Assembly: GCA_965263035.1 (NCBI GenBank)
Contig: OZ253580.1
Location: 5,344,001 to 5,408,000 of the forward strand
Length of the DNA: 64,000 nt
From: Acidobacteriota bacterium
GTDB lineage: Bacteria > Acidobacteriota > UBA6911 > RPQK01 > JAJDTT01
Direction of reading: 5' to 3'
Shown: positions 2,606 to 48,691 of the stretch, piece by piece
Numbering within the stretch: the first letter of the stretch is position 1
Layout: each line of letters begins with the position of its first letter
The notes under the pieces: generated by a model
Told to the model about the DNA's origin: nothing
Seen by the model: only the letters and a program-made list of their open reading frames with translations
Databases searched by the model: none
Program-made: the position numbers and the translations under genes

Positions 2606-2609
2606 CCCG

Positions 2610-3122: not shown

Positions 3123-3431
3123 CGAACACATCGCCAAAAATACACAATCCGATCGCAAAACAAGAGTGACTTTGCCGGCTCCCGAATTCCCAAGAATTCG
3201 GCGGCTGGAAAGCAGTCCGCTCACCTGCTAACAGGACCGGACACTTCACGGACTAACGACACGGGATGGAAACACCAAATCAGAACCCACGATTTGCAAC
3301 ATGGATATTCCAAAGTGGCCACTACTTACGCCAATTCATGCCCGGGGCGGAAGCTCCTCGATCCTCATCTTGCTATCATCCGACAAACTAGATTCGGCGG
3401 ACTCAGTGTTCGACCAGCTGGAAGGATCGGC

Positions 3432-4445
3432 ATGCACAAGCTATTTCGCACGACGGTGACCGGGAGCTATCCGCGTCCGGTCCAGCCCCAGGACACTCTG
3501 CGCAAGCCGGAACTCAGCCGGGAGGAGGCCGACGAGATCATCCGGTGGGCGGTTCGGGACCAGGTGGACGCGGGGTTGGACATCGTGACCGACGGCGAGG
3601 GCCGGCGCGAGAACATGTACTACTTCGTCCAGAAGCGGGTCGAAGGCGTCAGCTTCGAAAAGATGACCTACCGCGAGTTCGGGACCGCCGGCTTCGGAAT
3701 CGAGTTGGCTCAGGTGGTCGGCCCCCTCACCAATCCCAACGTGGGACTGGCCCACGACTGGCGTGTGGCCCGGGACGCTGCTCCAGCAGGTGTCGAGGTC
3801 AAGATCACCTGCATCGGCCCGCATATGCTGGCCAAGTTCTCAGACAACCGCCGGCCCGACCTTTACCCGGACGACGCCGCGCTGGCGGCCGGGTACGCCC
3901 GGATCCTGAACCAGGAGTTTCGGGAAGCGGTCCGCGCCGGTTGCGAGTTCATCCAGTTCGACGAACCGGCCTGGACCGCATTCCCCGAAGACGCGGCCTG
4001 GGCGGCCGAAACCCTGAAATTGGCGACGGAGGGACTCGGCATACGATTCGGTCTGCATGTCTGTGGGGGAAATGCTTACCGTAAACGTGTCTACTTCGCC
4101 CGTTACACCGACATGGTCGAGGCCTTTCGCGCCGCTCCGGTCGACCAGATCTCCCTGGAGCATTGCACCCTGGAATACGACATGATGCCGCTCTGGGAGG
4201 AACTGGACTATCGGGGGGAGTTTGCCGTGGGAGTCCTGGATCAACGCAGCGACGAGATCGAGCCGCCGGATCTGATCGTCGAACGGATTCGGCCGGCCCT
4301 GGAGCATTTTCCTCCCGAACGCTTGCTGCTGACGTCCGAATGCGGCTTTCAGCACGTCCCGCTGGATGTCACCCGCTACAAGTTGAGGACCCTGGTGGCG
4401 GGCGCCGAACAGGCTCGAAGGGTCCTGGTCCGTCGATCCGGCTGA
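3432..4445 (+). CDS. Cobalamin-independent methionine synthase II family (MetE C-terminal/core-type)
   Basis: GSYPRP, DIVTDGEGRR, IQFDEP, LHVCGGN and SECGF Zn-binding motifs. ATG at 3432 after GAAGGA. Confidence 0.85.
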   Translation: MHKLFRTTVTGSYPRPVQPQDTLRKPELSREEADEIIRWAVRDQVDAGLDIVTDGEGRRENMYYFVQKRVEGVSFEKMTYREFGTAGFGIELAQVVGPLTNPNVGLAHDWRVARDAAPAGVEVKITCIGPHMLAKFSDNRRPDLYPDDAALAAGYARILNQEFREAVRAGCEFIQFDEPAWTAFPEDAAWAAETLKLATEGLGIRFGLHVCGGNAYRKRVYFARYTDMVEAFRAAPVDQISLEHCTLEYDMMPLWEELDYRGEFAVGVLDQRSDEIEPPDLIVERIRPALEHFPPERLLLTSECGFQHVPLDVTRYKLRTLVAGAEQARRVLVRRSG

Positions 4446-4460
4446 GGAAACGAGGAACCC

Positions 4461-4769
4461 GTGGGCACCGTCTTCACACCACTTGACGCGGGCGTCTTCT
4501 TCGCCGCCTTGGCTCTGGTGATGGCCATCGGCCTGCTGGCGTCCCGGCGCGAGAACACGGCGGAGGCCTATTTTCTGGCGGGCCGAAACATCCCTTGGTG
4601 GGGCGTGGCCGGTTCCATCTACGGCAGCAACGTCAGCGCCAATCACATGATCGGGATGATGGGCATCGGCTTCAGCGTCGGTTTCGCCCAGAGCCACTTC
4701 GAGCTGGGGGCCATCGCCGGCCTCATGCTCCTCTGCTACGGGTTCCTCCCGGTCTATCGAAAGTTGAAG
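4461..4769 (+). pseudogene. Sodium:solute symporter (SSS), 5' part, interrupted by the integrated element
   Basis: YFLAGRNIPWW, S.YGSNVS and FLPVYRKLK SSS motifs. Homology stops at TTGAAG (4764-4769), and the ORF runs 11 further codons into the insert to a stop at 4805. Confidence 0.9.
4764..4769 (+). repeat. attL core (TTGAAG)
   Basis: Duplicated at 14661-14666. Encodes Leu-Lys (codons 102-103) of the SSS gene. Confidence 0.85.
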
Positions 4770-4836
4770 GCTTGCACTGTCCGACCATGTATATTTCCAT
4801 TATAGGGGAACCCGGCTGACGGTCCAGCCCAAAGTG

Positions 4837-4921
4837 CCCCCGCTGGCGGAATTGGCAGACACGGGAGGCTTAAACCCTCCTGGCCGCAAGGCCGTGTGGG
4901 TTCGAATCCCCGCGCCGGGGA
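4837..4921 (+). tRNA. tRNA-Leu(TAA)-like gene, degenerate or atypical
   Basis: D-loop GGCGGAATTGGCAGAC, anticodon arm GGAGG-CTTAAAC-CCTCC, long variable arm GGCC-GCAA-GGCC, T-loop GGTTCGAATCC. Defects: C-A mismatch in D-stem, extra C in T-stem, C-C mismatch in acceptor stem, no encoded CCA. Confidence 0.75.
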
Positions 4922-4949
4922 CTCCTGAAGACTGTGCCTCCGCAGGACT

Positions 4950-5520
4950 CTACAACCCCAGGTCCTTAAGGTCACGGAGGCCAATTGCCTTCAGATCGAC
5001 ATTCCCTTCTTCGAGAGGATGGAGAGGGTCTAATTCGTAGTGTCTCTGAAACAAGTGAATCGTTTGACCGACAACTCGTGCGAGACTTCTCACTTGGGGG
5101 ATACGTTGCTGAGATTCATTTGCAGGCAGATCAAGCGCATCACCAAGAAGAATAGGGATGGTATCGAAGATAGTGAGCACGCTAGCAGCCGCATAGTGGT
5201 TCAAATCGCCTAGTCTTGGTAGTGCGGATTCAAAAACTCTTTTGCTGTTGACAGTCTCATATGCGGATCTTTCGTAGATTTTTCCTGGCCTCGATAATAT
5301 CGCGGCCAGAGCGACCAGTTTATTGTGGAGATCCGATCTGAGTAGCGAAGCAACTGCCTTTGCTTTAGCGCGGCGCCTTTCGGCCTGAAGCTTGCGAGCG
5401 TTCTTCATCGTCAAATAGGAGGAAAGGAACGCAGCACCCAAACCAATCACATACGGCCCCAGTGTCTTTAGGAAGTTGAGTATCGTTACGGCGCTTGGCG
5501 CTTGTCCCGGATCAGCCATT
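4950..5520 (-). CDS. Hypothetical cargo protein with one N-terminal TM helix (start uncertain; ORF open to 5672)
   Basis: Visibly AT-richer than the flanks. Hydrophobic YVIGLGAAFLSSYL followed by a basic helical segment. Confidence 0.6.
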
Positions 5521-5672
5521 TCAGACACTTCTAAGAGTAGCATGGCTACCAGCCTATCGATCCAGTGTGACACCCCCGGCGTGGTACTCTGGCGGGGCCT
5601 GGAGGCGTTATTCCGCTTGGTCCGTCTGGGAGTTTGGGCGGGAATCGTCAGGCTCACCAGGTCTCCAAGCAC

Positions 5673-6300
5673 CCCCGGAATTTATTCTGATGGCTCAGAA
5701 TCGCCGGGGAGCGGTCCTTCCAACGTGTGTCACCGGATTCTGGTAAACTGCACGGCAGAGTCGGGCAGGGAGCGACGGGCCACAATCACACGAGTCTCAT
5801 CCACTCGTGGCCAGGCACCCTGCCCTTTTTTCCCATCCACTGTCGTACCGTCCGTGATAAACTCCACAGCAGGATGAGGCTCGATCTCGCGGACCATTAC
5901 CAGATACCGCTCTCCAGTCTCGTCTTGCGTCCGTTTGCTGTGGGCTTATGCGCGGGCCGGACGCGATTTAAGACGATCTCCAACAGCGGGATCGGCGGTG
6001 CGGGACGGGACCTTCATACCGCACGCGGCAACCCCGAAGGAGCGGGCCAACCGGGCAACCGGCCCCGTTCTGGAGTCCAGGGCCGGAAGGGCGGGGAGTT
6101 CACAGCCTCCGCGGAAATGTGCTGGACTCCCGCTAGCAGGCGATCTCTGATCTAGCGGGTAGAAGATCTGCCAGGGAAAATCAGCGGGGTGGGTTCACGC
6201 GTACGCGCGCGAGGATCTGAATACCCCTCTGGTTTTTCCGATCCGCCGTAGGCGGGGAGGCCAAAGCAGATGGGGTTCCTACTTGCACCACACCCCTACC
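5673..6300. other. Hairpin-dense non-coding tract (candidate ncRNA and/or replication origin)
   Basis: Stems include GGGCAGGG/CCCTGCCC followed by T6 (5763-5831), GGAGTCCAG/CTGGACTCC (6072-6130) and CCCGCTAG/CTAGCGGG (6129-6159). No convincing ORF. Confidence 0.4.
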
Positions 6301-6414
6301 TAATCTTTAATTATCTTCAGTTTTGGTTTTAGGGGAAGAGAGAAAGTTAGAGGAGGAGTACCCATTACTACACCTTCCCGCCCCGCAGGGGTCTTACAGA
6401 CGAAATAGGAGGAA

Positions 6415-6702
6415 GTGATGCTACGAGGAAAGCGAACTCGATTTGCACTGTACGCGGTCACCGATGACCCGGATGTTCTGGTGGTGGATCGGAAAATGGC
6501 GGAGTGGATCGAGAAGCCCCCGCTTTGGACCTGGGACGACTTCCACGTCGTCGGGGTCTTCGAGTGCTCCGCCGATACTGCTATTGACTTGCTCAACGGC
6601 CAAGAGCTGATCTGTGGAGGATACGAGGAGAATCCGAATATCCCCGGCGTAGGGATCAAGACTATCTGGTCGCTCTGCGAAGTGCCTGACCCTGCTCGGT
6701 GA
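6415..6702 (+). CDS. Hypothetical protein (element)
   Basis: AGGAGG RBS upstream; 95-aa ORF with protein-like composition. Confidence 0.6.
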   Translation: MMLRGKRTRFALYAVTDDPDVLVVDRKMAEWIEKPPLWTWDDFHVVGVFECSADTAIDLLNGQELICGGYEENPNIPGVGIKTIWSLCEVPDPAR

Positions 6703-6756
6703 TTACACTTCTGATACCATGCCCCCGTTGGGTGTGGCCGACCCCCTCCTAAACTT

Positions 6757-6772
6757 CCCCCCCCCCCCCCCC
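6757..6772 (+). repeat. C16 homopolymer
   Basis: 16 consecutive C upstream of the morphogenesis operon. Confidence 0.85.
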
Positions 6773-6851
6773 AATCCCACCTTTGCTAGGCAATTTCGAC
6801 CCCCTGTATTTACGACTGAAATAGTCAGACCCTCCCTTCCATACTGCCTGC

Positions 6852-7100
6852 GTGACCGGATCTCGGACCTCTTACCGATTGATGATCAATGCTGAGTGGG
6901 ACGACGGACGTCCCTCGATCGACGTTTCTGTCCGGGAGATTCCAAGCGATGTCAGTCCTGCCGATGTCATCAAGCTGCTTCGCAACTGCTTGATCCTGGG
7001 TCCGCATCGTCTGGAATTCAGGGAATTGCAGGCGGGCGGTGCTTGCGGATTCCTAATCATAGGCTCCACCAAGCCACGGCGCGGGAGGCCCCCAAAATGA
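6852..7100 (+). CDS. Hypothetical protein with C-terminal AT-hook-like PRRGRPPK
   Basis: Stop codon overlaps the next ATG (ATGA at 7097-7100). Start uncertain. Confidence 0.45.
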   Translation: MTGSRTSYRLMINAEWDDGRPSIDVSVREIPSDVSPADVIKLLRNCLILGPHRLEFRELQAGGACGFLIIGSTKPRRGRPPK

Positions 7101-7345
7101 GGGCGCACAGATCCAGGCATCGCTGGGGACCGTCTCCTCTAAGCACCAGTTACTGGGCGGACATAGTACGTCCGGAGTGGGTGATCGCGTTGAAGCGCCA
7201 GAAGCTGGACGACACCATCCAACGGATGGCCTTGCCCTTCCTCGACAAAAACCGGCCGGGATCGCCGGGCCAGAAGTGCTCGGTTGACGCTGCATGGGAG
7301 ACGATTTTGCGGGCCAACGAGATCTACTTGAGGACTGGGCAATGA
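7097..7345 (+). CDS. Hypothetical protein (82 aa)
   Basis: GGGAGG RBS; ATGA overlaps at both ends. Confidence 0.6.
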   Translation: MRAHRSRHRWGPSPLSTSYWADIVRPEWVIALKRQKLDDTIQRMALPFLDKNRPGSPGQKCSVDAAWETILRANEIYLRTGQ

Positions 7346-7719
7346 CCATCAAGATCACCCTGCTCAACGAGCGGCAGATCCTCCAGGGCATCGACCAGTT
7401 GGAGACAGTCTTGGGCCGAGAGATGGTCACGGGCGTGAATCGAGCCACGAAGAAGATACTGTCCACCGCCAAGCGTAATGCTCCGGTAGATACGGGACAA
7501 CTTAGGGATAGCGGATCCAGAGATCCTGCTGCTGTGAAGAAGAGCGGGCTGGGTGGGACTTCTGTTGTAGGTGCTGTTGAATTTTCGGCTCCTTATGCTG
7601 TGGCCGTCGAGTACGGAAAAGGTCGAGGCAATCACTACTTGCGGTCGGCTATAGACAGGCACGAGGGTGGCCGGGATGACATCGCCGCCGCCATCGGGCG
7701 GGCAGTGGGGGCGGTATGA
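7342..7719 (+). CDS. HK97 gp10-family phage neck/tail-completion protein
   Basis: AKRNAPVDTGQLRDS, YAVAVEYG and YLRSA motifs. Confidence 0.8.
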   Translation: MTIKITLLNERQILQGIDQLETVLGREMVTGVNRATKKILSTAKRNAPVDTGQLRDSGSRDPAAVKKSGLGGTSVVGAVEFSAPYAVAVEYGKGRGNHYLRSAIDRHEGGRDDIAAAIGRAVGAV

Positions 7720-7816
7720 CGGCACCGGGGGCATGGGGAACCCCTGCTTCCCGTGATCCGGCCAGGGCGGCATACGTGGTGGGGGTCAGCCTTACGTCCG
7801 GCAAGAAGGATTCTGG

Positions 7817-9289
7817 ATGAGTTTGCAGACGAGAATCCTCCGATATTTGAAGGATCAGGCCGACCACCGGCTCTTGCCCTTCCACCGCGAGTTCATACGG
7901 GGCGCATACGATCCGAGCTGCCAGATCGCCGCTGCGAGCTATCCACGCGGCGCAGCGAAGACGTGGCTGTCGGCCCAGCTGCTCGCATGTTCCCTCAGAC
8001 CACGCTCCCCACTGTTCCGGGCCGGTATCGAGAATCTGGCGATTTCGGCCTCCTTGGAACAGTCGCGGGTCCTGGTGACGTTCGTCCGGCAGATCCTGGA
8101 GCCTTTGGGCGGATATGTTTTCGTCGATTCGAGCCAGCGATTGCAGGTCCGGCATAAGGCGACGAACACGAAATTGAGGGTGCTGAGTTCGAGTGGAAAG
8201 CGAGCACTCGGCCTCTCCCAATTCCAGGCGATTTATGGCGATGAGCCGGGATCGTGGGAATCGAGAAACGGCTTGCTGGTTTGGGATGCGTTGCGCACTT
8301 CATTGGGAAAACTTCCAGGACAGAAACTCATCCTGACCGGTACTCAGGCACCGGCTGATCTCGATTCATGGTGGCCCAATCTCCTTTCCCTGGGATCGGG
8401 ACCCGGGCGCTACGTCCAGGTGCTCGCTGCCGATCCATCCGAGCCCTGGGATGCGTGGCCAACCATCTACGGATGCAATCCCATGGTGTGGAGCAATCCG
8501 CACCTGAGAAAGACGATTTTGAGGGAGCGGGACGAGGCTCGGAAGGACGAAACGCTTAGGGCCTCCTTCAAGGCGTTCCGACTAAATCAGTTGGTGAACG
8601 TCAACGCCGACATGCTGCTCTCGGTGGCTGACTGGAAACGCGTCGAACAGCGTCCCGTTCCTCCACGGGAAGGCCGTCCGATCTGTGGCCTTGACCTCGG
8701 AGCGGAACGAAGTTGGTCCGCAGCCTTTTTGGTGTGGAAAAACGGGAGAAGCGAGTGCTACGCCCTCTGTCCTGGAATACCCAGCTTGTCTCGGAGAGAG
8801 CAGCAGGACGCACAACCCAGGGGTCTCTATCGGAGACTACATGCCGATGGGCATCTCTTGGTCGATGAGGGCCGCAGGGTCTCCCGTCCGAAGGTGTTGA
8901 CCGATCACCTCAAGAAGGTAGGCATCCGCCCCACGGTGGTCTTCTGCGACCGCTTCCAGCTCGGGACGCTGAAGGATGCCGTTACGTGGCCGATCCAGCC
9001 GCGAACGGCCCGATGGAGTGAAGCGACGGAAGACATTTCCTCGTTCCGGCGGATCGCCAAGGATGGACCCCTGGCCATCGAGAAGAAGTCCCGGCCACTG
9101 GCTCGGCTCGGACTGAGTCAGGCCACGGTCGAGACCGACTCCCAAGGTTCCATCCGCATGAAAAAACGGCGGGCGGACCGATCACGCGATGATGTGGCGG
9201 TCAGTGCCGTGCTGGCATCAGGCGGGCTCGTCCGGGCGCTGTCGCGTCCGCAGGCTCCACGGTGGAGATACCGGGGGCGAGTCCAATGA
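7817..9289 (+). CDS. terL: Phage terminase large subunit
   Basis: Walker A-like PRGAAKT, Walker B IYGDE, coupling motif LTGT, nuclease CGLDLG and C-terminal RDDVAVS. Confidence 0.85.
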   Translation: MSLQTRILRYLKDQADHRLLPFHREFIRGAYDPSCQIAAASYPRGAAKTWLSAQLLACSLRPRSPLFRAGIENLAISASLEQSRVLVTFVRQILEPLGGYVFVDSSQRLQVRHKATNTKLRVLSSSGKRALGLSQFQAIYGDEPGSWESRNGLLVWDALRTSLGKLPGQKLILTGTQAPADLDSWWPNLLSLGSGPGRYVQVLAADPSEPWDAWPTIYGCNPMVWSNPHLRKTILRERDEARKDETLRASFKAFRLNQLVNVNADMLLSVADWKRVEQRPVPPREGRPICGLDLGAERSWSAAFLVWKNGRSECYALCPGIPSLSRREQQDAQPRGLYRRLHADGHLLVDEGRRVSRPKVLTDHLKKVGIRPTVVFCDRFQLGTLKDAVTWPIQPRTARWSEATEDISSFRRIAKDGPLAIEKKSRPLARLGLSQATVETDSQGSIRMKKRRADRSRDDVAVSAVLASGGLVRALSRPQAPRWRYRGRVQ

Positions 9290-9573
9290 GGCGTCCTGGG
9301 GATCTTTCCAGTAGGCAGCTGGTCCGGACCAGGAGACGGTTGTGGGCCGAGCAGAAGTCCCGGTGCGGGAAGTGCGCCCGTCTGACCCGGCTCCAGGATA
9401 TGGAACTGCATCATAGGAAGATGCTTCGAGACGGCGGCACCAATGATCCGGGCAACCTGATTTTGTGGTGCAAGCCGTGCCATACGGAAGAAACACGATT
9501 CCAGAACACCTCTGCCGAGATTCGTGACGAGGCTCGGCGGTGGCGTCAATTCCTAACAGGAGAAAGAGCATGA
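9286..9573 (+). CDS. HNH endonuclease (phage packaging-associated)
   Basis: CGKC...HH...GG..D.GNL..WCKPCH; ATGA overlaps at both ends. Confidence 0.9.
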   Translation: MRRPGDLSSRQLVRTRRRLWAEQKSRCGKCARLTRLQDMELHHRKMLRDGGTNDPGNLILWCKPCHTEETRFQNTSAEIRDEARRWRQFLTGERA

Positions 9574-10778
9574 CCACGAAACAGAAATTGGAGTTGAGGC
9601 GTTCGGAACTTCGCTCCCGGCTGGCGGAGATCGCCGGTTTGGACAAACTGACGGATGAGGTCCGCACCGAGTCGAAACAGCTCGAAAGCGAGTTTGCAGA
9701 CTTGGAGACGAAATACCGCGCCGCCTTGCTTTCCGAGCAGGAGAAGGAGACCCGTGCGGCTGTCGATGATCCCGGCGGCGAGCAGAAGGCGCTCAGGCGG
9801 TTGCTGGAACGTGCCAATGTCGGCACGAAACTGGTGTCCATCGTCGAGGGGCGGTCGGTCGCCGGTGCGGAGGCGGAGGTGGATCAACATTTCAAGATCG
9901 AGGGTGATGGGCTGGCCATCGACTACCTTCGGGAGACCCGAGCCGTAACTCCCGGTCCGGCGGATGTCGGAGCCGTGCAGCAGCCCATCATCGGCCAGAT
10001 CTTCCCGGATGGAGTGGCCAGCTTCCTGGGTGTCTCGATGCCCACGGTCGGAGTCGGAGAGCAGACCTACACCGTCCTGACCACCGGCGCGGACGTGCGG
10101 ACCCCGGCAGAGAATGCCGCCGCAGCCGAGACCACCGGCGCATTCACGGCCAGCGTCTTGGCTCCCAAACGGGCGCAGGCGTCATTTTTCTGGAGCATCG
10201 AGGACGAGGCGAGGCTGGCGGGGATGGAAGCGGCACTCCGGCAGAATCTCCGGATGGCGTTGTCCAGCAAGTTCGACAACCTGTTGCTGAACGACACCAC
10301 GGCTGGATTGCTGGAAGGTGGTCTCACTCAGGCCGGCGATCCCTCATCCCAAGCGGATTACGGCGCTTACAAGTCGTCGGTCGTCAATCAGGTTGACGGG
10401 AAATTTGCGTCCATGCCGGATCAGGTTCGGCTGGTACTTGGCGCCAAAACTTACCAGCACGCCGACGGCCAATATCGAGGGACGACCTCGAACTGGAGCT
10501 CGGACGATTCCGGCTTCGAGGCGATCCAGAGAAAGTCCGGCGGCGTCCGGGTGTCCGATCATGTACCGGACCCGGCGTCCAACATCCAGAAGGCCGTGGC
10601 CGCTCGCCGGATCAACGCCATGCACGCCGTCATGCCGCTCTGGAGAAGGTTAACCGTGATTCCGGATCGCGTGACCAAGGCCAGCGCCGGGCAGGTTCTG
10701 GTAACGGTGGTGGCACTTTGGGCGCTGAAGGTGCTGCGCGCGGATGGATTCCAGGCGCTGAAATTCAAGCTGGCTTGA
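9570..10778 (+). CDS. Phage major capsid protein (HK97 fold, N-terminal delta/scaffold domain)
   Basis: Coiled-coil N-terminus, AEN...T and L...LR.ALSSKFD.LLL backbone-helix pattern, about 400 aa, module context. Confidence 0.8.
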   Translation: MTTKQKLELRRSELRSRLAEIAGLDKLTDEVRTESKQLESEFADLETKYRAALLSEQEKETRAAVDDPGGEQKALRRLLERANVGTKLVSIVEGRSVAGAEAEVDQHFKIEGDGLAIDYLRETRAVTPGPADVGAVQQPIIGQIFPDGVASFLGVSMPTVGVGEQTYTVLTTGADVRTPAENAAAAETTGAFTASVLAPKRAQASFFWSIEDEARLAGMEAALRQNLRMALSSKFDNLLLNDTTAGLLEGGLTQAGDPSSQADYGAYKSSVVNQVDGKFASMPDQVRLVLGAKTYQHADGQYRGTTSNWSSDDSGFEAIQRKSGGVRVSDHVPDPASNIQKAVAARRINAMHAVMPLWRRLTVIPDRVTKASAGQVLVTVVALWALKVLRADGFQALKFKLA

Positions 10779-10781
10779 GCG

Positions 10782-11207
10782 ATGCCAATCACAATTCTGC
10801 GAGGTCCAGCGGGAGCGGGGAAGTCACAATATCTGGAGGAAAATCTCCAGCCTGGTGAAATCACTATCGACATTACCCCGCTCCACGTGGCCCTCAATCA
10901 CCCCGTTTTGCGGCGAGGACCGGACGGCAAGTATCCGATCCGTCAGCCGGACGATCTGAGCCTGAACCTGGCCCGGATCGCCAAGCGGTTCCTGGTGGGA
11001 CGGGCGGAGGCGCTGGGCGTGAGTGGGTACGTGACCACCTCCGATTCCAGCCCGGAGGAGATCGAGAAGATCCGGGGTTGGGGAGCGACAGGTCGGGTTG
11101 TGACCGTTGACCCTGGCGAGGCCGTCGTTCGGCGCAGGCTGGCGGACTCGACCGGCGAGGTGCCCGACGCTTGTGAAGACTCGATTGTCCGGTGGTACAG
11201 CGTATGA
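10782..11207 (+). CDS. Small P-loop NTPase/kinase-like (AAA_33-like)
   Basis: ITILRGPAGAGKS Walker A. Confidence 0.75.
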   Translation: MPITILRGPAGAGKSQYLEENLQPGEITIDITPLHVALNHPVLRRGPDGKYPIRQPDDLSLNLARIAKRFLVGRAEALGVSGYVTTSDSSPEEIEKIRGWGATGRVVTVDPGEAVVRRRLADSTGEVPDACEDSIVRWYSV

Positions 11208-11656
11208 GAATCGTTGCGCGCGTTGAAATCCGGGAGGCGAAGGGCGTCAAGCGGTTGGAGCTGACCCTGATTCAGGAGGGTCGGGCAGCCGCCGGTGGAC
11301 GCGCGGAAGTATTCGCCCCAGGGTCTCTTTCCTGGCCCGATGAGGGAGTAGCAATTCGCTCCGTCCACCTGGGTCCCGCCATAGGCAGAGCCCATCCAGC
11401 ACGAAGGCCCGATGGGCGAATCCAGATTTCCACCAAGGCCAACGCAGCCATGGTCAAGGCCGTCGAGGTGGAAGGCAAGCGGGGCGCCAGTGTCGAGTTT
11501 GTCCCCATTCGGCAAACCACGACGCAGGGGGGTGTGACGGAGGTTCGGCGGGCCTTCGTCGATGGTGTCGCACTGGTGGTCAATCCGGAGTACTCACAGG
11601 GCCGGGCCGAGATCCGAAGCCGTGAGAAGGGGAGGAGCATCTTGTGGCGACTCTGA
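11204..11656 (+). CDS. HK97-type prohead protease-like protein
   Basis: EVFAPGSL, conserved His (SVH), GASVEF serine motif and GVALVVNPEY. Confidence 0.7.
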   Translation: MRIVARVEIREAKGVKRLELTLIQEGRAAAGGRAEVFAPGSLSWPDEGVAIRSVHLGPAIGRAHPARRPDGRIQISTKANAAMVKAVEVEGKRGASVEFVPIRQTTTQGGVTEVRRAFVDGVALVVNPEYSQGRAEIRSREKGRSILWRL

Positions 11657-12030
11657 GCCCGTGGCCCACGGACAGCGGACCAGCTCTGGACGAGATCCGG
11701 CGGCATCTGTACGCCCACGAGCTGGCGGGGGTTGACGACTCCCCAGACATGGTTCTGGAACTTCTGGGAGCGGCGAGTGCGGCCCTGGTCGAGAAATACG
11801 CTCCTGCCGCTCCGGCGGTGATCAAGAATCTTTCAGTGATCAGATGCGTCCAGTATCTCGTCGCACGTTCGGGCGGCAATCCTAGCCAGACGATCGAGTC
11901 CCTGGGCGACTACTCCGGCACCCGCGAGTTCGCGCCCTCTATGATCTCCTGTCTCCGCCATTCCGGAGCAATGGCCGTATTGAGTCCCTTCAAGATCAGG
12001 CGAGCCCGGCCGTGTGAGGTTTCCGAATGA
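11644..12030 (+). CDS. Putative head-tail connector/adaptor (gp6-like)
   Basis: GGAGGAG RBS. Helical pattern LLGAASAALVEKY..P..IK...IR.V.YL, then ESLGDYS and LSPFK. Confidence 0.55.
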   Translation: MATLSPWPTDSGPALDEIRRHLYAHELAGVDDSPDMVLELLGAASAALVEKYAPAAPAVIKNLSVIRCVQYLVARSGGNPSQTIESLGDYSGTREFAPSMISCLRHSGAMAVLSPFKIRRARPCEVSE

Positions 12031-13103
12031 GGTGGCAAGGCCGGGAAATCAGCATCGGACGCCGTGAGACCCGATCCGTTGGGTACACGGACCGGCTCAC
12101 CCAGTTGCTTATCTCGCAATCCACAACCGTGACCGAAACCGATCCTTCCCGGACTGCCGCTCTGGAGATCTGCGCCGGGATCTGGGGCCGCGCCTTCGCA
12201 AGCGCGAAACCGGAACCAGAAGCGGCAGCTCAGGTGCTCACCCCGTCCGTCTTGAACATGGTGGGGCGCGAGTTGATCCGGAAAGGTGAGATCCTGTTCC
12301 GGATATCCGTGGCGGACGGGCGGCGTGTCCTGACTCCGGCGAGTGCCTGGGACGTGACCGGCGGTTCGGACCCCTCCTCTTGGCAATTCGTCGCCTCCTT
12401 CTCCGGACCCGATACCGAGAGTGAGGCTACGCTCGATTGGGCTGAGACCGCGTTGTTGACCTGGGCCGTGGAGCCCGGACAGCCATTTAAGGGCCTGGGA
12501 CCGCTTGAAGTGGCCGATCTGACCGGGAGCTTATGCGGGAGCTTGGAGAAGAGCCTGAGCGACGAGGCGGCGACGCCACACGGATTCCTGATGCCGGTCC
12601 CGCAGGCCGACGAGGTGGACGATGATGAGGTCGATCCGCTAGCCGAGATGCGGGCGGATTTGAAGCAGCTGAACGGCGGCCTGAGTTTGGTAGAAACTAC
12701 GTATGGCGGCCACGGCGAAGGCCGTGGTGCTGCCCCTCAAAAGGACTGGGTGCCGAGTCGGCTCGGGCCTGCTGTTCCAGATTCCTTATGCAAGCTCCGG
12801 GAGGACGTACACCGTTCGGTCCTGAGCGCCTGCGGGATCTCCCCGGCGATGGTCGGCGGGCGTTCGGACGGAACTGCAAGGAGAGAAGCCTACAGAACCT
12901 TTGCTCACCTGAGCTTGACCCCAGTGGGCCGGATGGTCTCGGCTGAACTGGCCGACAAGCTGGACATCCCGGACCTGAAATTCGACTGGTCGGCGTTGAT
13001 GGCTGGAGACATCACCGGCAAGGCGCGGGCGTTCGCCAGTCTGGTCAAATCCGGCATGGACGTAACGAAAGCCGCCAGCCTCTCGGGGCTGATGGTGGAA
13101 TGA
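12027..13103 (+). CDS. Phage portal protein
   Basis: ELIRKGE, FKGLGPL, V..ACGISPAMVG and L.P....ELADKL portal-like motifs. Confidence 0.8.
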   Translation: MRWQGREISIGRRETRSVGYTDRLTQLLISQSTTVTETDPSRTAALEICAGIWGRAFASAKPEPEAAAQVLTPSVLNMVGRELIRKGEILFRISVADGRRVLTPASAWDVTGGSDPSSWQFVASFSGPDTESEATLDWAETALLTWAVEPGQPFKGLGPLEVADLTGSLCGSLEKSLSDEAATPHGFLMPVPQADEVDDDEVDPLAEMRADLKQLNGGLSLVETTYGGHGEGRGAAPQKDWVPSRLGPAVPDSLCKLREDVHRSVLSACGISPAMVGGRSDGTARREAYRTFAHLSLTPVGRMVSAELADKLDIPDLKFDWSALMAGDITGKARAFASLVKSGMDVTKAASLSGLMVE

Positions 13104-13110
13104 CGATAAA

Positions 13111-13421
13111 CCCGCAGACCAGGACAGGACGCTGGCAGCGGGCCTCTCGGTGAAACCTTTGGTTTTGTTAGGCCGAGAGGGAAACAGCCGAGCCCATTCG
13201 GTTCGGCTGGACGGTTGCCGGTGTTCAATTCCGCCGGTTGCCGCAGTCGGGGTTATGAGTTCGCCCCGGCGTCTTTGGGGCCGGTTTCTTACAGGGTTCC
13301 CGGCCCCACCTTCCTCCACCCCACACGCAAGGGTCCCAGTAGGGTCGTTGGGCCATCGGCTGCACACCGAAGCTGGACCTCACCCTCCGTCCGCTACCGA
13401 TTGCTCGGCCCTGGATGGCCC
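13111..13421. other. Tandem stem-loop array between the convergent portal and integrase genes (terminators or candidate ncRNA)
   Basis: Six back-to-back hairpins at 13111-13308 plus longer-range pairings at 13341-13421. Confidence 0.5.
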
Positions 13422-13467
13422 CGGATCGTCTGGCCGCGCCTACCCATACCTACCATCCTCCACACGC

Positions 13468-14565
13468 TCAGGCGCTCTTGACGGAGCGGAGTTGTGGGCG
13501 CTTGTCCAGGTATTGCAGGATGCCGTCCCGCTCGGAGTCTTCGGTCCCGACGTAGTGGGCGCACATGGAGGCGGACTTCCACCTGAGTATTCTTTGCACG
13601 CGTTGCAGGGGCATCCCGGAGGCTGTCAACTCCATGGCGAGTCCCCGGCGCAGTCCGTGGAATCTGACCCGGCCCGGAGAGGGCAGCCCCGCCTTCTTGG
13701 CCCATTTCTTGATCTGTAGTTGGATCTGATTCGTCCGAAGTCCGTCCGGCTGGACCCCACCGTTGATCACCTTCCGGAACAGGGGACCGTCGTCGATCCC
13801 GGCCACGTCCATCCAGCGCTGAATCCGCTTGGCGGTGCGGGACCGGACGATCTGCACGGCTCCGACCCCGGCCTGGTCCGTTTTGCTGGATCTGATCGTG
13901 ATCCGGGCATGACCCTCCGGCCGGAAATCCACGTCCTGGACCTGGAGCGCGGCAATTTCGCCGACTCTCAGCCCACCATCAAAGGCGGCGTAGAACATGG
14001 CGGCGTCCCTGAGTCCCCATAGGCTGAAGGCAGCGTCACACGCGGACACCAGCTGCTCCAGTTGGGACTCCCGTAGTCCCGGTGCTTGTCCCCGTCCCCG
14101 TCCCCGTCCCTTGGCGGAAATCTTCTTCATCGCATTCTTGACGTGACGGCCCGTGGGAATCGGCTGATCCATGGCTATGGCCCGGAACCGTGCGGCGAGC
14201 ACCACGTTCTTGAGCGTCGGCGGGGATGCCTTGCGGCGCAGCTTCGCCAGCCGGTACTTACCGTTGGCCTTGCGATATCTCCGGTGGATCGTAATCTGGC
14301 CGTTGTGTCGGAGCAGGAGATACCGGGAAAGTGTCACGTCCGTGAGTTCCCGGCCCGTCTCCTCCAGCCACCTGTCCAGGTGCCGGAGAGCGCTTTGGTA
14401 CTGCTTGCGGGTGGAATCCGCGACGGACATCCAGGCCATCTCCATCCCAAAGTCGGGCGCGGATTCCTCCGGGATCTCGATCAGGTCCGGGTCGGGTTCG
14501 GGCGACTGGCTCTGTTTGGGCATCGCGAACACCACGTTTTGAAATTGCGAGTTGACTCCGAGCAC
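13468..14565 (-). CDS. int: Tyrosine recombinase/integrase, Cre-like
   Basis: AAGGAGG RBS. Catalytic GLRVGE, SKTDQ, HGLRRG, LRW (Trp as in Cre) and AHY. Lies ~100 bp from attR. Confidence 0.92.
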   Translation of the reverse strand: MLGVNSQFQNVVFAMPKQSQSPEPDPDLIEIPEESAPDFGMEMAWMSVADSTRKQYQSALRHLDRWLEETGRELTDVTLSRYLLLRHNGQITIHRRYRKANGKYRLAKLRRKASPPTLKNVVLAARFRAIAMDQPIPTGRHVKNAMKKISAKGRGRGRGQAPGLRESQLEQLVSACDAAFSLWGLRDAAMFYAAFDGGLRVGEIAALQVQDVDFRPEGHARITIRSSKTDQAGVGAVQIVRSRTAKRIQRWMDVAGIDDGPLFRKVINGGVQPDGLRTNQIQLQIKKWAKKAGLPSPGRVRFHGLRRGLAMELTASGMPLQRVQRILRWKSASMCAHYVGTEDSERDGILQYLDKRPQLRSVKSA

Positions 14566-14660
14566 GGCGTAACCTCCTTGGCTCTAGTGCCAACCCTCTA
14601 CCCTCCTCTTTCGCAAGTTGCGCGGCGATCGATAGATAAAAATGCTGTCGCCGGTAATCC

Positions 14661-14666
14661 TTGAAG
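14661..14666 (+). repeat. attR core (TTGAAG)
   Basis: Second copy of the core, from which the SSS frame resumes LKLYTLSEYLERRY. Confidence 0.85.
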
Positions 14667-16289
14667 CTCTACACCCTCTCCGAATATCTGGAGCGCCGCT
14701 ACGATCAGCGCAGCCGCGCCGCCTACGCCGTCATTCTGGTCATCACCATGGCCGTGGTCCAACTGGTTCCGGCGCTCTACATCGGCGCCCGTTCCAGTTG
14801 CGTGCTCATGGGCGGAGCCGCGCTCGAGGTGATCGGTTCGGAATCGATTCCCGGAGAGATAGTGGACGCGGAGCCGGGATCGGGCGATTCGTCGGAGGCG
14901 CCGGCCAAGTCGAAGCTGGGCGTGAACCGTTTTCACTACAGCATCTTCGTTCTGATCCTGGCCGCTATCGCCACCAGCTACACCATCTTCGGCGGACTCA
15001 AGGCGGTGATCTGGACGGACGTGATCCAGTCGGTCCTGCTTCTGCTGGGCGGCATCCTCCTGGCGACCCTCACCTTTGACCGGCTGGGAGGTTGGAGTGC
15101 CCTGATGGAACTGGATCGAGCGGGTTCCGGCAAGATGCGCCTCTATTTGCCCAGCGATCATCCCGATCTGCCCTGGACCGGTGTCCTGACCGGTCTGATG
15201 GCGCTGCATATCTTCTATTGGGGGACGAACCAGTTCATCGTCCAGCGTGCACTGAGTGCCCGGAGCGACTCGCAAGCGCGTCTGGGAATCGTAGCGGCCG
15301 GGTTCCTCAAATTGCTGATCCCGTTCTTCTCCATCGCCAGCGGAGTGGCGGCCTTCTATCTCTTCCAGTCCGAGCTGCCGAATCGTTCCGTGGCCCCCGA
15401 TACCGCTTTCACCGAGTTGATCGTTCTGGTGATCCGGCCCCTCGGATTCGGACTCATCGGCGTGATCTCGGCCGGCGCCGTGGGAGCCATCCTGTCCTCC
15501 ATCGATTCCATGATGAACTCGGCCGCCACCATCGTCAGCATGGACCTCTACCGCCGGTACCTCAATCCTCAGGCCAGCGACGCCCAGATGATCCGGGTGG
15601 GACGATGGTCCATCCTGGGGTTAGTCTCGCTCGCCAGCCTGTTCGCTCTTTTCGTCATCGATCCCAACTCGGAAAAGAATTTCTTCCTGCAGATCGTCGA
15701 CTATCAGAGCTACCTCACGCCCGGGCTCCTGGTGGTCTTCCTGCTGGGGCTGTTCTGGCGGCGGACGACACCCACCGCGGCTTTTGTCACCATCTTCCTT
15801 GGCGTTTTCTATTCCTGGGTCGTGGAGTGGATCTACCTCGCGCACTTGGCACACTTACCCGGGGTGGCGTCGTTGACAGGGGAGGTGCTCAACTTCTTTC
15901 ACCGGGTCCTCGTGGTCGTGGTGCTGTGCACGTTGACGGCCGTCTTGGTGAGCCGCTTGGGCAGCTGCCCCGAGGAAAAAGCGAAGCTGACGTGGTCCGG
16001 CGTGCTCAACGTTTCAACGGAGGCAGTCAGGAATCTGCTCCTGGGACTGGCGGTATGGTTTGGAGTCCTGGTGGCCCTGGCCGCGGCTGTGGCCGGAGGC
16101 CGTCTGGCACCGGAGTCCGCGGCCGTTCTTGCTTCGGTCCTGACCCTGGGAATGTTCTGGATGCTGCTGAGGCGCCGCGCCCGGAGCCGGGGGCCCGCGA
16201 GTTTCGTGTCCTGGGTCATTCGCGAAGACCGATTCTGGGCCGGATGCCTCTGTGCGGCCGTCGTCTTCTTTCTCTTCTATTTCTATTGA
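14661..16289 (+). pseudogene. Sodium:solute symporter, 3' part (intact frame)
   Basis: YTLSEYLERRY, YTIFGGLKAVIWTDVIQ, YWGTNQFIVQRAL, SSIDSMMNS. Continues the 4461-4769 fragment exactly. Confidence 0.9.
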
Positions 16290-16359
16290 TCCGGACTCCG
16301 GACGCTTGCGGGAGGACGGACCCCGGTATCTGTTCGCGCCGGGAAATCTCTCGCGCTTA

Positions 16360-16416
16360 GCAGTCCGCCGGGATGCAGGGACGGTCGAATGCCGTGGCGA
16401 CTTTTGCCATGGGCTG
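16360..16416 (-). repeat. Partial copy of the 160-bp MITE-like repeat
   Basis: Reverse complement CAGCCCATGGCAAAAGTCGCCACGGCATTCGACCGTCCCTGCATCCCGGCGGACTGC matches the start of the 48692 copy. Confidence 0.85.
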
Positions 16417-48690: not shown

Positions 48691-48691
48691 A

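What the first reader, a model, noticed from the sequence alone, without database searches (positions are those of the whole stretch)
4461..16289. Transporter gene split cleanly by an excisable element: candidate phage-satellite gene switch
Seen: the SSS gene breaks at ...CGA AAG TTG AAG (RKLK, 4769) and resumes 9.9 kb later at TTG AAG CTC TAC (LKLYTLSEY, 14661). Recombination between the two TTGAAG copies gives a continuous 643-aa ORF (101 + 542 codons). Neither half shows stops or frameshifts, and the recombinase has all catalytic residues. Known: gene-interrupting elements such as the Bacillus skin element and the Listeria comK prophage restore host genes on excision. Inference: this is either a very recent insertion or a reversible switch on a transporter downstream of a MetE-like gene.
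Basis: partly seen in the sequence, partly recalled or inferred. Interest (0 to 1): 0.85.

Follow-up and report, generated by a model that had tools for sequence, protein, structure and literature searches.

The report
Capsid-encoding mobile island splitting a transporter gene
A 9.9-kb mobile element that carries its own virus-head and DNA-packaging genes but no tail genes has recently landed inside a transporter gene of an acidobacterium; it looks like a phage satellite of a kind not yet described in this phylum, not a programmed gene switch.

Summary
An SSF-family transporter gene is cut after codon 103 (window 4769) and resumes at 14661. The 9,897-bp insert is flanked by the 6-bp repeat TTGAAG. 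All 8 same-genus genomes hold an uninterrupted 643-codon gene. The insertion is therefore recent and strain-specific.

The insert encodes a Cre-like tyrosine integrase with all catalytic residues. It also encodes TerL, HNH, an HK97-type capsid protein, an S78-like protease, a portal, neck proteins and a decaying tRNA-Leu(UAA). No tail, lysis or replication gene was recognised.

It belongs to a family with at least 7 copies in this genome. Two other copies (9.3 and 10.5 kb) are also absent from all 8 congeners. No tail or other terminase family was found anywhere in the genome.

Best reading: a capsid-forming, helper-dependent satellite-like element. It resembles cf-PICIs and the Streptomyces satellite MulchRoom but has not been reported in Acidobacteriota. 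Nothing supports a regulated switch. The site is empty in every other genome and strain contig examined, and other family members use unrelated sites. An outward promoter-like box suggests that integration separates the integrase from its promoter.

The parts
3294..4445 (+). MetE-like gene (cobalamin-independent synthase catalytic domain) directly upstream of the transporter gene; context only
   Evidence: Pfam Meth_synt_2 1.8e-21. The MetE-like then transporter order is kept in 8 of 8 congeners.
4461..4769 (+). N-terminal 103 codons of the SSF (sodium:solute symporter family) transporter gene, ending in the left TTGAAG copy. The open frame runs on to 4805 in element DNA.
   Evidence: Pfam SSF 6.7e-14, profile positions 1-71. 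It is 98-102 of 103 identical to the 8 orthologues.
4764..4769 (.). Left copy of the 6-bp crossover core TTGAAG (attL)
   Evidence: 6 letters fit both sides of the joint in empty-site contigs.
4770..14660 (.). The inserted element. It is 9,891 bp between the two cores, or 9,897 bp counted with one core.
   Evidence: Flank homology to the orthologues stops at 4767 and restarts at 14661. The joint 4763 to 14661 is present in 3 runs.
4797..4836 (-). Conserved box beside the tRNA. It contains a sigma-70-like promoter (TGGACC-16-TATAAT, 4826 to 4799) that points out of the element's left end.
   Evidence: The box is conserved in the 4 places of the genome that match within 6 mismatches. It is the only promoter-like site found in 4400-7900. 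Function is inferred.
4837..4922 (+). tRNA-Leu(UAA)-like gene, probably decaying
   Evidence: ARAGORN calls it. It fails Rfam tRNA, with a best score of 20.3 bits to tRNA-Sec. Its paralogues score 41.6 and 37.8 bits. The sequence shows a C5:C68 acceptor mismatch and no encoded CCA.
4950..5672 (-). orf240: membrane-anchored helical protein of unknown function (accessory gene)
   Evidence: No Pfam or PHROG hit. Only 21 relatives among 1.84 billion representatives. AF2 gives pLDDT 81.4, all-helical. No Foldseek match at E<=0.001. Homologues sit at the same position in L035 and in loci A and C.
5483..6241 (.). Stretch conserved at DNA level with another island end in the same genome. It overlaps the doubtful ORF 5727-6155. 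Its role is unknown (regulatory or packaging site?).
   Evidence: 74% identical over 768 nt to G000 2100471-2101187, and 88% over 198 nt to 2915681-2915878. It is 38% identical over 104 aa to an ORF of the G007 relative. No family hit.
6896..7345 (+). ORF whose C-terminal ~70 residues (7121-7324) are conserved upstream of the head genes; function unknown (small terminase candidate, untested)
   Evidence: tblastn of the G007 99-aa ORF gives 41% over 68 aa, E 2e-20. No Pfam or PHROG hit.
7294..7719 (+). HK97 gp10-like tail-completion / Neck1 protein
   Evidence: Pfam HK97-gp10_like 7.9e-08 and PHROG 5 4.3e-15.
7817..9289 (+). Large terminase subunit
   Evidence: PHROG 9 9.7e-29. Six paralogues in the genome at 31-44% identity.
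9262..9573 (+). HNH endonuclease next to the terminase
   Evidence: Pfam HNH 1.5e-09 and PHROG 589 5.5e-13.
9540..10778 (+). HK97-type major capsid protein with a coiled N-terminal extension
   Evidence: PHROG 10 3.3e-05. Pfam Phage_capsid 0.003, below its cut-off. Many of its 118 database relatives carry PF05065.
10782..11207 (+). Small P-loop protein (Walker A GPAGAGKS) conserved in the family; role unknown
   Evidence: Pfam AAA_33 0.0017 (below cut-off) and PHROG 4581 3.1e-06. Alignment A3. Only weak kinase-like PDB hits.
11192..11656 (+). Prohead protease candidate (S78-like)
   Evidence: His59 and Ser100 are invariant in 6 of 6 paralogues. 1 of 6 paralogues hits Pfam Peptidase_S78 at 6.4e-05; the window copy itself has no hit.
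11644..12030 (+). orf128: conserved small protein between protease and portal (head-tail connector candidate, not shown)
   Evidence: Conserved in 4 elements. No PDB profile hit. The AF2 model is too poor to use, pLDDT 53.9.
12027..13103 (+). Portal protein
   Evidence: Pfam Phage_portal 4.2e-10, 39.8 bits against a cut-off of 39.1.
13468..14565 (-). Cre-like tyrosine integrase, reading inward from the right end
   Evidence: Pfam Phage_integrase 1.8e-23. The nearest solved structure is Cre, E 2.8e-09, with all seven catalytic or conserved positions kept.
14661..14666 (.). Right copy of the core TTGAAG (attR)
14661..16289 (+). C-terminal 542 codons of the transporter gene
   Evidence: Pfam SSF 2.9e-38, profile positions 119-406. 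It is 482-495 of 540 identical to the 8 orthologues, without gaps or stops.

Best explanation
A 9.9-kb integrative element has inserted recently, and in this strain only, into codons 102-103 of an SSF transporter gene. Insertion was by site-specific recombination at a 6-bp core (TTGAAG), catalysed by the element's own Cre-like tyrosine recombinase.

The element is one member of a family of small (9-10.5 kb) islands in this Acidobacteriota genome. Each encodes an integrase and a complete-looking phage head and DNA-packaging set: TerL with an adjacent HNH, an HK97-type capsid protein, an S78-like protease, a portal and neck proteins. None has a recognisable tail, lysis or replication gene.

The most likely way of life is that of a capsid-forming phage satellite. 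The element makes its own small heads and packages itself, and it depends on a helper phage for tails and lysis, and perhaps for induction and replication. No such helper is resident in this genome.

The gene interruption is a side effect of where the element landed. Precise excision would restore the 643-codon gene, but this is not a programmed switch.

Shown: the insertion, its exact ends, the empty allele in near-identical strains, the gene content, and the family with its other strain-specific insertions. Inferred: helper dependence, self-packaging, and the idea that integration separates the integrase gene from an outward-facing promoter at the other end of the element.
For: Insertion and recency:
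- 8 of 8 congeners have the intact 643-codon gene.
- One contig in each of 3 other runs (3 studies) joins 4763 to 14661. These contigs show only 2-3 other letters in 464 nt and 3 in 1727 nt.
- Both junctions are spanned by the source sample's own contigs.

Gene content:
- Integrase, gp10-like, TerL, HNH, capsid and portal have family hits.
- The protease rests on invariant His and Ser and on 1 of 6 paralogues hitting Peptidase_S78.
- None of the 10 main ORFs hits a tail, holin, lysin, primase or replicase family.
- The further small ORFs tried are also without such hits: window 5727-6155, 6415-6702 and 6896-7345 in both Pfam and PHROGs, window 13215-13481 in both, and window 6852-7100 in PHROGs only.
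- The Replicase gene of a G004 relative has no counterpart in the element.

Family:
- tblastn finds integrase, TerL, capsid, P-loop, protease and portal clusters at six other places in the genome, plus fragments.
- The same gene order occurs in G001, G007 and G003. Blocks of TerL (one on the opposite strand, one of another terminase family), capsid and portal, with the protease recognised in 2 of the 4 loci, occur in three distant genomes of the phylum.
- Two sister elements are delimited by empty sites in 8 of 8 congeners: R4 at 9,301 bp and R1 at 10,537 bp, with imperfect 11-19-bp repeats.
- G000 has 8 capsid matches against 0-2 in each congener.

No resident helper:
- PF10145, PF04984, PF04865, PF05709, PF03354 and PF03237 give 0 matches in the genome. 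PF04860 matches only this family.

Recombinase:
- It is Cre-like with all catalytic residues. A 6-bp core equals the stagger of Cre cleavage (recalled knowledge).

Promoter split:
- The only promoter-like site in 4400-7900 lies in a box conserved in 4 of 4 copies and points out of the left end.
- No promoter-like site was found in 13000-14900, which includes the 95 bp between the integrase start and attR.
- At locus C the same box directly faces an integrase gene.
Against: - No helper phage is known, and no virion, circle or packaged form was seen. IMG/VR gave a single 7-kb contig with a 38% capsid relative, and two scans of JGI metagenome contigs gave nothing.
- No small terminase, regulator (AlpA, CI or Cro type), excisionase or replicase was recognised. 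Part of a satellite's usual toolkit is therefore either missing or too divergent to see.
- The element's tRNA looks degenerate. Three sister copies are visibly decayed, with stops, fragments or IS-like insertions. Decay is thus common in this family.
- No inverted-repeat arms around the core could be read: 5-7 of 13 matches, about chance.
- The promoter scan uses an E. coli-type consensus and may not apply to this phylum.
- The connector role of orf128 is not shown.
Confidence: 0.6

Rival explanations
1. Programmed reversible gene switch ('active lysogeny'). The element is kept in the transporter gene, and regulated excision and re-integration turn the transporter on and off.
For: The insertion is in frame-exact register, and recombination between the cores would restore a full 643-codon gene. 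The integrase is intact. Cre-type recombinases are reversible without accessory factors (recalled knowledge). Host genes on the - strand downstream (16417-19063) could in principle read through into the integrase gene (inference).
Against: The site is empty in the one contig laid across it in each of 3 other runs of near-identical strains, and in 8 of 8 congeners. Occupancy is therefore not conserved, unlike in known switches. Sister elements sit at unrelated sites with different cores. The nearest integrase relative (44%, G001) lies about 110 kb from that genome's intact orthologue. The target is one of 35 SSF matches in the genome. On the carrier's own branch the split gene has 2 amino-acid changes at positions invariant in the 8 congeners against 1 synonymous change. 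The empty-site alleles have 0 and 2; the numbers are too small for a test. Integration appears to cut the integrase off from its promoter.
Confidence: 0.07
2. Cryptic remnant of a once complete prophage that has lost its tail, lysis and replication genes and can no longer move. The split gene is simply a dead gene.
For: No tail, lysis or replication gene was recognised. The tRNA is degenerate. Several sister copies in the genome are clearly decayed.
Against: All ten recognisable ORFs are intact. The same tail-less 9-10.5-kb layout recurs in copies only 30-45% identical within the genome, and in other genera. Independent deletions would not produce this. Three family members are absent from all 8 congeners. 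This one is also absent from strains about 99.7% identical in the flanks, so it arrived at its present size very recently.
Confidence: 0.15
3. A domesticated or autonomous head-only particle system: gene-transfer-agent-like, or a tail-less self-transmitting element that needs no helper.
For: No tail gene family and no other terminase family was found anywhere in the genome. The genome nevertheless keeps at least four intact-looking head modules.
Against: Each copy has its own diverged integrase and its own insertion site, and is strain-specific. This is the mark of selfish mobile elements, not of one domesticated locus. Neck and tail-completion genes (PHROG 5, 4.3e-15) make sense only if a tail is attached.
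Confidence: 0.08
4. Assembly artefact: the element was wrongly placed inside the gene.
For: None found.
Against: Logan contigs of the source sample run across both junctions at the same depth as the flanks, 22.4-24.5.
Confidence: 0.01

Closest known systems
[quoted passage not shown] EcCIEDL933), as defined for SatelliteFinder (PMC10085698; passages read)
   Same: A small integrative island with integrase, HNH, TerL, portal, protease, capsid and head-tail joining genes, and without tail or holin genes. Several copies can occur in one genome.
   Different: No AlpA-type regulator, primase-replicase or small terminase was recognised. The gene order differs: the portal comes last and the integrase sits at the far end on the opposite strand. 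The integrase is Cre-like and the core is 6 bp inside a coding sequence. The host phylum is Acidobacteriota; the paper reports cfPICI in Proteobacteria and Firmicutes. SatelliteFinder itself could not be run, and its models (supplements and Docker package) were not seen.
Streptomyces satellite phage MulchRoom (and MiniFlayer) (PMC10690885; abstract and section 12 read)
   Same: Encodes its own terminase, portal, capsid, head-to-tail adapter, HNH and (in MulchRoom) a tyrosine integrase. It lacks any primase or replication gene and depends on a helper.
   Different: Those satellites are linear genomes with ~1-kb terminal repeats, 20-26 genes and no tRNA, with a recognisable small terminase and scaffold. 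They belong to a different phylum. No sequence relationship was tested or seen here.
Gene-interrupting excisable elements acting as switches: Bacillus/Clostridioides skin in sigK, the Listeria comK prophage, S. aureus phiSa3 in hlb (PMC5025042, PMC7397523, PMC6597384; search listing and abstract starts only)
   Same: An integrase-borne phage-like element inside a coding sequence, whose precise excision would rebuild the gene.
   Different: In those systems the occupied state is widespread and excision is cue-dependent. Here the site is empty in every other genome or strain contig examined and nothing shows regulated excision.
Cre recombinase of phage P1 (solved structures such as 1xns and 1nzb)
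   Same: It is the nearest solved relative of the integrase (E 2.8e-09), with R, E, K, H, R, W and Y at the catalytic positions. A 6-bp exchange region matches the 6-bp core (recalled).
   Different: The relationship is distant. No loxP-like 13-bp inverted arms could be read around the core. The enzyme here serves chromosomal integration.
Gene transfer agents (RcGTA type; recalled, no paper read)
   Same: A head and packaging gene cluster in a bacterial chromosome without a replication module.
   Different: GTAs encode tails, have no integrase, sit at one conserved locus and package host DNA. Here there are many diverged, integrase-bearing, strain-specific copies.

Membership tests
cf-PICI (SatelliteFinder definition, PMC10085698) | Integrase at one end | tested here: met
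   Pfam Phage_integrase 1.8e-23.
cf-PICI (SatelliteFinder definition, PMC10085698) | Regulator of AlpA, MerR or Stl type next to the integrase | tested here: not met
   No Pfam or PHROG hit for any small ORF of the element. Only a G007 relative has an HTH_23 protein.
cf-PICI (SatelliteFinder definition, PMC10085698) | Primase-replicase | tested here: not met
   No such family hit. The PF03090 Replicase of the G004 relative has no tblastn match in the element.
cf-PICI (SatelliteFinder definition, PMC10085698) | HNH, TerL, portal and capsid genes | tested here: met
   The capsid is supported by PHROG 10 and by PF05065 in its relatives.
cf-PICI (SatelliteFinder definition, PMC10085698) | Small terminase | tested here: inconclusive
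   The only pointer is a weak PHROG 4581 match ('terminase small subunit', 3.1e-06) on the P-loop protein. A conserved small ORF upstream of TerL has no family.
cf-PICI (SatelliteFinder definition, PMC10085698) | Head maturation protease | tested here: inconclusive
   The window copy has no hit. 1 of 6 paralogues hits Peptidase_S78 at 6.4e-05, and His and Ser are invariant.
cf-PICI (SatelliteFinder definition, PMC10085698) | Head-tail connector and adaptor | tested here: inconclusive
   The gp10-like / Neck1 gene is present. orf128 is unassigned.
cf-PICI (SatelliteFinder definition, PMC10085698) | No tail or holin genes (forbidden components) | tested here: met
   None among the hits. The unassigned DNA (5.7-7.3 kb) is too short for a tail module.
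cf-PICI (SatelliteFinder definition, PMC10085698) | Induction by, and packaging with tails of, a helper phage | not testable with these tools
   Needs experiments. No resident helper was found.
Tyrosine recombinases (Cre-like) | Catalytic R-K-H-R-(H/W)-Y set | tested here: met
   R200, K228, H303, R306, W329 and Y338 align to Cre R173, K201, H289, R292, W315 and Y324.
Phage/element regulatory switch ('active lysogeny') | Insertion in a coding sequence that precise excision restores | tested here: met
Phage/element regulatory switch ('active lysogeny') | The occupied state is the common, maintained state of the species | tested here: not met
   The site is empty in the contig across it in each of 3 other runs laid, and in 8 of 8 congeners.
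Phage/element regulatory switch ('active lysogeny') | Cue-dependent excision and re-integration in the carrier | not testable with these tools
   Only contigs, not raw reads, were available for the carrier.
SSF, sodium:solute symporter family (host gene) | Match to PF00474 over the whole length | tested here: met
   The N part covers profile positions 1-71 and the C part 119-406. The orthologues are 643 aa.

The most novel reading that the evidence does not exclude
These islands are an undescribed lineage of capsid-forming phage satellites in Acidobacteriota. They are 9-10.5-kb units that build and fill their own HK97-type heads, carry no replication, tail or lysis genes, and use Cre-like integrases. 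The integrase promoter lies at the opposite end of the element, so integration switches the integrase off (a one-way latch). They persist as several diverged lineages in one genome while their helper is a non-resident, possibly virulent, phage. The copy in the transporter gene would be a currently mobile member caught just after arrival.
Probability: 0.35. Interest if true: 0.7.

Novelty: new variant of a known kind. Interest (0 to 1): 0.5.

Why it matters
A mobile element landing in a gene is ordinary, and the switch idea does not hold up. The element itself is the more interesting result.

Capsid-forming satellites have so far been catalogued mainly in Proteobacteria and Firmicutes (PMC10085698). 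The two papers on acidobacterial prophages and viruses that I checked by passages do not describe them.

This genome holds at least seven copies of a minimal 'integrase plus head plus packaging motor' unit. With the six tail and terminase families I searched, no tail gene or other terminase was found in it. Three copies have ends defined exactly by empty sites. That gives a clean, small system in which to ask three questions: how little a satellite needs, who its helper is in a poorly studied soil and marine phylum, and whether splitting the integrase from its promoter is used to lock integration.

For the host, the practical consequence is the loss of one of about 35 SSF transporters in this strain.

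Tried and rejected
- **Protein atlas.** The protein-atlas search did not hold orf240.
- **Carrier reads.** The carrier's contigs (run X1) show no joint for attB (4763 to 14661) or for a circle. Contigs drop rare forms, so this says nothing either way.
- **Element cover in other runs.** In runs X13, X18 and X21 the element has almost no cover. I use only the contigs that join across it. Scattered low-depth pieces there are 90-95% relatives or a poly-C match. One 151-nt piece in X18 (12894-13044, depth 2, no differences) is left unexplained.
- **Runs not laid.** Three further runs of the source sample hold the whole stretch. Sixteen further runs held 0.29 or less of the sampled words. None was laid, and none is used as evidence.
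- **Core arms.** Inverted-repeat arms around the core gave 5-7 of 13 matches, so there is no signal.
- **Second sites.** No attB-like or attP-like 26-mer with fewer than 6 mismatches exists elsewhere in the genome.
- **Codon usage.** TTA makes up 6 of 268 Leu codons in the element and 2 of 252 in neighbouring host genes, too few to explain the tRNA.
- **Profile searches against solved structures.** The protease profile gave only a capsid-fusion protein at E 0.35. The orf128 profile gave nothing. The P-loop profile gave only Walker-A-level kinase hits.
- **Structure models.** The AF2 model of orf128 has pLDDT 53.9 and was not searched. The orf240 model (pLDDT 81.4) has no Foldseek PDB match at E<=0.001, only generic four-helix-bundle sensor domains.
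- **Rfam.** Nothing at E<=0.1 over 4400-15000.
- **Phage records.** The best TerL match is 25% identity, to Pseudomonas phage PAJU2.
- **Collection scans.** Genome contigs found G001 again plus one weak archaeal match. Viral contigs gave one contig with the capsid alignment and none with the portal alignment. Metagenome contigs gave none in two scans.
- **Substitution test.** I did not attempt dN/dS between the halves and the congeners beyond counting lineage-specific changes. G000 has 15, and each congener has between 1 and 5. This may only reflect branch length.
- **Literature.** Searches, and passages of PMC5900883 and PMC11924767, turned up no capsid-forming satellites in Acidobacteriota. 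Subscription journals and supplements were not searchable.
- **Recalled, not read.** The original cf-PICI paper, the role of HNH in cos packaging and the 6-bp stagger of Cre are recalled, not read.

Full report
**What is in the sequence**

The + strand frame that starts at GTG 4461 encodes the first 103 residues of a sodium:solute symporter family (SSF) protein and ends ...FLPVYRKLK at 4769. It then runs 12 codons into unrelated sequence and stops at 4805.

At 14661 the same protein resumes with LKLYTLSEYLERRY and runs 542 codons to 16289. An in-frame TAA lies two codons upstream of 14661.

TTGAAG stands at 4764-4769 and at 14661-14666, and nothing longer is shared by the two junctions. Pfam places the N part on SSF profile positions 1-71 and the C part on 119-406.

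**Comparison with relatives**

All 8 other genomes of the genus hold one uninterrupted gene of 643 codons, which equals 101 + 542. The two halves align to it without a gap. The N part is 98-102 of 103 identical and the C part 482-495 of 540.

The relatives' DNA runs straight through the site as cgaaagTTGAGG(a/g)tctac. The neighbouring genes are also conserved. The MetE-like gene lies upstream in 8 of 8 genomes and a short-chain dehydrogenase downstream in 7 of 8.

One congener carries the record title 'Acidobacteriota bacterium', which places the genus in that phylum.

**Comparison with near-identical strains**

Four runs of one sample hold the whole stretch searched (window 4500-5300, across attL), and many others hold a part of it. 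I laid one source run and three runs from three other studies on 4300-16400.

- The source contigs run across attL (4300-5606) and attR (10201-16389) at even depth, 22-25.
- Each of the other three runs has one contig that joins 4763 directly to 14661. The joint skips 9,897 bases and 6 letters fit both sides. Depths are 10, 82 and 28.
- These contigs differ from the window at only 2-3 positions in the 464 nt on the left and 3 in the 1,727 nt on the right.

The insertion is a recent, strain-level event.

**What the insert encodes**

From left to right:

| Window position | Strand | Feature |
|---|---|---|
| 4837-4922 | + | tRNA-Leu(UAA)-like gene |
| 4950-5672 | - | 240-residue membrane-anchored helical protein of unknown function |
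| about 5.7-7.3 kb | . | about 1.6 kb without a convincing gene |
| 7294-7719 | + | HK97 gp10-like tail-completion / Neck1 protein |
| 7817-9289 | + | large terminase |
| 9262-9573 | + | HNH endonuclease |
| 9540-10778 | + | HK97-type major capsid protein |
| 10782-11207 | + | small P-loop protein |
| 11192-11656 | + | 154-residue protein |
| 11644-12030 | + | conserved 128-residue protein |
| 12027-13103 | + | portal |
| 13468-14565 | - | tyrosine integrase |

The 154-residue protein has invariant His59 and Ser100. One of its six paralogues hits Peptidase_S78, so it is probably the prohead protease.

None of these proteins, nor the small ORFs tried, hits a tail, holin, lysin, primase, replicase, repressor or excisionase family. 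The unassigned DNA is too short for a tail module.

The head and packaging set looks complete apart from a small terminase. The rest of a phage is missing.

**A family, not a one-off**

tblastn with the element's proteins finds the same set at six other places in the genome, plus fragments. The set is integrase, TerL, HNH, capsid, P-loop, protease, orf128 and portal.

- Three of these copies look intact at 30-45% identity: near 0.36, 1.79 and 4.88 Mb. The copy near 1.79 Mb also carries an IS-like ORF pair inside it.
- Three are decayed, with stops, fragments or IS-like insertions.

For two intact copies I searched the 20-kb neighbourhoods in the 8 congeners. In 8 of 8 the flanks are present without the island. 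They abut or overlap by 13-19 bp in all 8 for R1 and in 7 of 8 for R4; in G007 they lie 178 bp apart. This gives island sizes of 9,301 bp and 10,537 bp, with imperfect repeats at the ends. The core is AAATCGGATTG for one of them.

The genome has 8 capsid matches against 0-2 in each congener. None was found in 32 genomes of other genera of the order at E<=1e-10.

Relatives with the same layout as the window's element sit at other sites in G001 and G007. In both, the integrase lies at the far end on the opposite strand.

In a sample of 401 genomes of the phylum the capsid family turns up in 6, from 4 of 227 genera. In the three distant genomes the capsid lies beside a terminase and a portal. One terminase is on the opposite strand and one is of the gpA family. 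The protease was recognised in 2 of the 4 loci and HNH in 1.

The capsid has 118 relatives in the 5.8-billion-protein library. Almost all are unnamed and come from metagenome assemblies.

A layout that is kept across such divergence, together with three strain-specific insertions, speaks for a self-maintaining kind of mobile element. Independent prophage wrecks would not give this pattern.

**The recombinase and its site**

The integrase's nearest solved relative is Cre (E 2.8e-09). R200, E203, K228, H303, R306, W329 and Y338 align with Cre's R173, E176, K201, H289, R292, W315 and Y324.

From general knowledge (not from a call), Cre exchanges strands across 6 bp. This fits a core of exactly 6 bp.

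I could not read inverted binding arms around the core. In 401 genomes of the phylum only one integrase passes E 1e-50: the G001 element's, at 44% identity. The target preference of this enzyme therefore cannot be learned from relatives.

**An outward promoter at the other end**

Five tRNA-Leu(UAA) genes exist in the genome. Four of them, including the window's, are preceded by the same ~30-40-nt box.

On the opposite strand the box reads TGGACC-16-TATAAT and points out of the element's left end. It is the only promoter-like site found in 4400-7900. None is found in 13000-14900, which includes the 95 bp between the integrase start and attR.

In a circular form the box would lie about 125 bp upstream of the integrase gene, with the core between them. 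At another locus the same box directly faces an integrase gene.

I infer that integration separates the integrase from its promoter. That would stabilise the integrated state and would not favour easy switching. This is an inference from an E. coli-type consensus.

The window's tRNA copy itself looks damaged. It has an acceptor-stem C:C mismatch and no CCA. It scores below Rfam's tRNA threshold, while two paralogues pass.

**No helper in the genome**

These family models give no match in the 6.2-Mb genome:
- tape-measure protein (PF10145)
- tail sheath (PF04984)
- baseplate J (PF04865)
- siphovirus tail (PF05709)
- two other large-terminase families (PF03354, PF03237)

The portal model matches only members of this family. 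If the elements need tails and lysis, these must come from a phage that is not resident.

**Comparison with what is known**

The nearest described kinds are two.
- Capsid-forming PICIs have integrase, AlpA, primase-replicase, HNH, TerS, TerL, portal, protease, capsid, connector and adaptor, with tails and holins excluded. They are reported in Proteobacteria and Firmicutes (PMC10085698, passages).
- The Streptomyces satellite MulchRoom encodes terminases, portal, capsid, adapter, HNH and a tyrosine integrase, and lacks any primase (PMC10690885, section 12).

The present element works like these on paper. It fails the cf-PICI definition on the regulator and the primase-replicase, and it has a different order and a different integrase. 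I file it as a new variant, not as a member.

Papers on acidobacterial prophages and viruses that I checked by passages do not describe such elements.

**The switch idea**

Known gene-interrupting switches keep the element in place across strains and excise on cue (abstract starts only). Here the evidence runs the other way.
- Every other genome or strain contig examined has the empty site.
- Sister elements use other sites.
- The target is one of 35 SSF matches in the genome.
- Of the five coding differences between the carrier and the empty-site strains, the carrier's own branch has two amino-acid changes (F422L and V621I) at positions invariant in the 8 congeners, plus one synonymous change. 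The empty alleles have two synonymous changes.

The substitution numbers are far too small for a test, but they do not suggest a gene kept in working order. Raw reads of the carrier were not available, so excision at low frequency cannot be excluded.

**Limits**

Helper dependence, self-packaging and the promoter latch are inferences. No small terminase, regulator or excisionase was recognised.

Noticed in passing
G000 2101850-2101936(-), 2801586-2801672(-), 2914932-2915018(+), window 4837-4922(+), G000 5672126-5672212(-): There are five tRNA-Leu(UAA) genes in a 62% G+C genome. Four of them are preceded by the same ~30-nt box, and three are followed by an orf240-like gene. The fifth (2801586) is different and is probably the host's own. 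tRNA-Leu(UAA) also lies beside related elements in G001 and G004.
   Followed up: partly
window 16358-16416, 20409-20466, 48690-48748; G000 376140-376309; G000 4874310-4874460: Three families of short dispersed repeats, of about 60, 165 and 120 bp, give 155, 185 and 55 blastn hits in the genome. They are also abundant in congeners at 83-99% identity (REP- or MITE-like). One copy lies in the gap between the transporter gene and the convergent dehydrogenase gene.
   Followed up: partly
G000 2913450-2914424(-) and at least 7 further places (e.g. 5708240, 5656903, 2088271, 3684098, 5547356): A second tyrosine-integrase family (325 aa, Pfam Phage_integrase 1e-24) is present in many copies at 59-85% identity. 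It points to another multi-copy mobile element.
   Followed up: no
G000 22789-24399, 1791081-1792500(-), 5145448-5147058: The same 470-aa plus 63-aa ORF pair (IS-like) sits inside or beside three of the capsid-encoding islands (R2, R3, R6).
   Followed up: no
window 2402-2993: A PIN-domain gene (Pfam 2.8e-14) is preceded by a 67-codon ORF. This is a likely VapBC-type toxin-antitoxin pair between the enolase-superfamily gene and the MetE-like gene.
   Followed up: no
window about 6758-6773: A run of 16 C lies in the unassigned part of the element. It probably caused spurious cover in two runs laid on the region.
   Followed up: partly
L036 (G004:C1:3003000-3022999) 13826-15804: A related element in a congener carries a plasmid-type Replicase gene (PF03090, 1.2e-20) next to a 238-aa ORF and a tRNA-Leu(UAA). 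Some family members therefore do have a replication gene.
   Followed up: partly
L052 (G389:C1:1452500-1472499) 6734-14391: A distant relative has two capsid-family genes flanking TerL, with a SIR2_2-domain gene (possible defence gene) directly after the portal block.
   Followed up: no
window 12894-13044 in run X18: One 151-nt contig at depth 2 is identical to the element, in a run whose main strain has the empty site at depth 82. It could be a trace of a carrier subpopulation, carry-over or a shared fragment.
   Followed up: no
window 15621-15623: One of the two amino-acid changes specific to the split gene turns a Phe codon (TTT in all others) into TTA. That is the rare Leu codon read by the tRNA type the element carries. 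It is probably coincidence.
   Followed up: no
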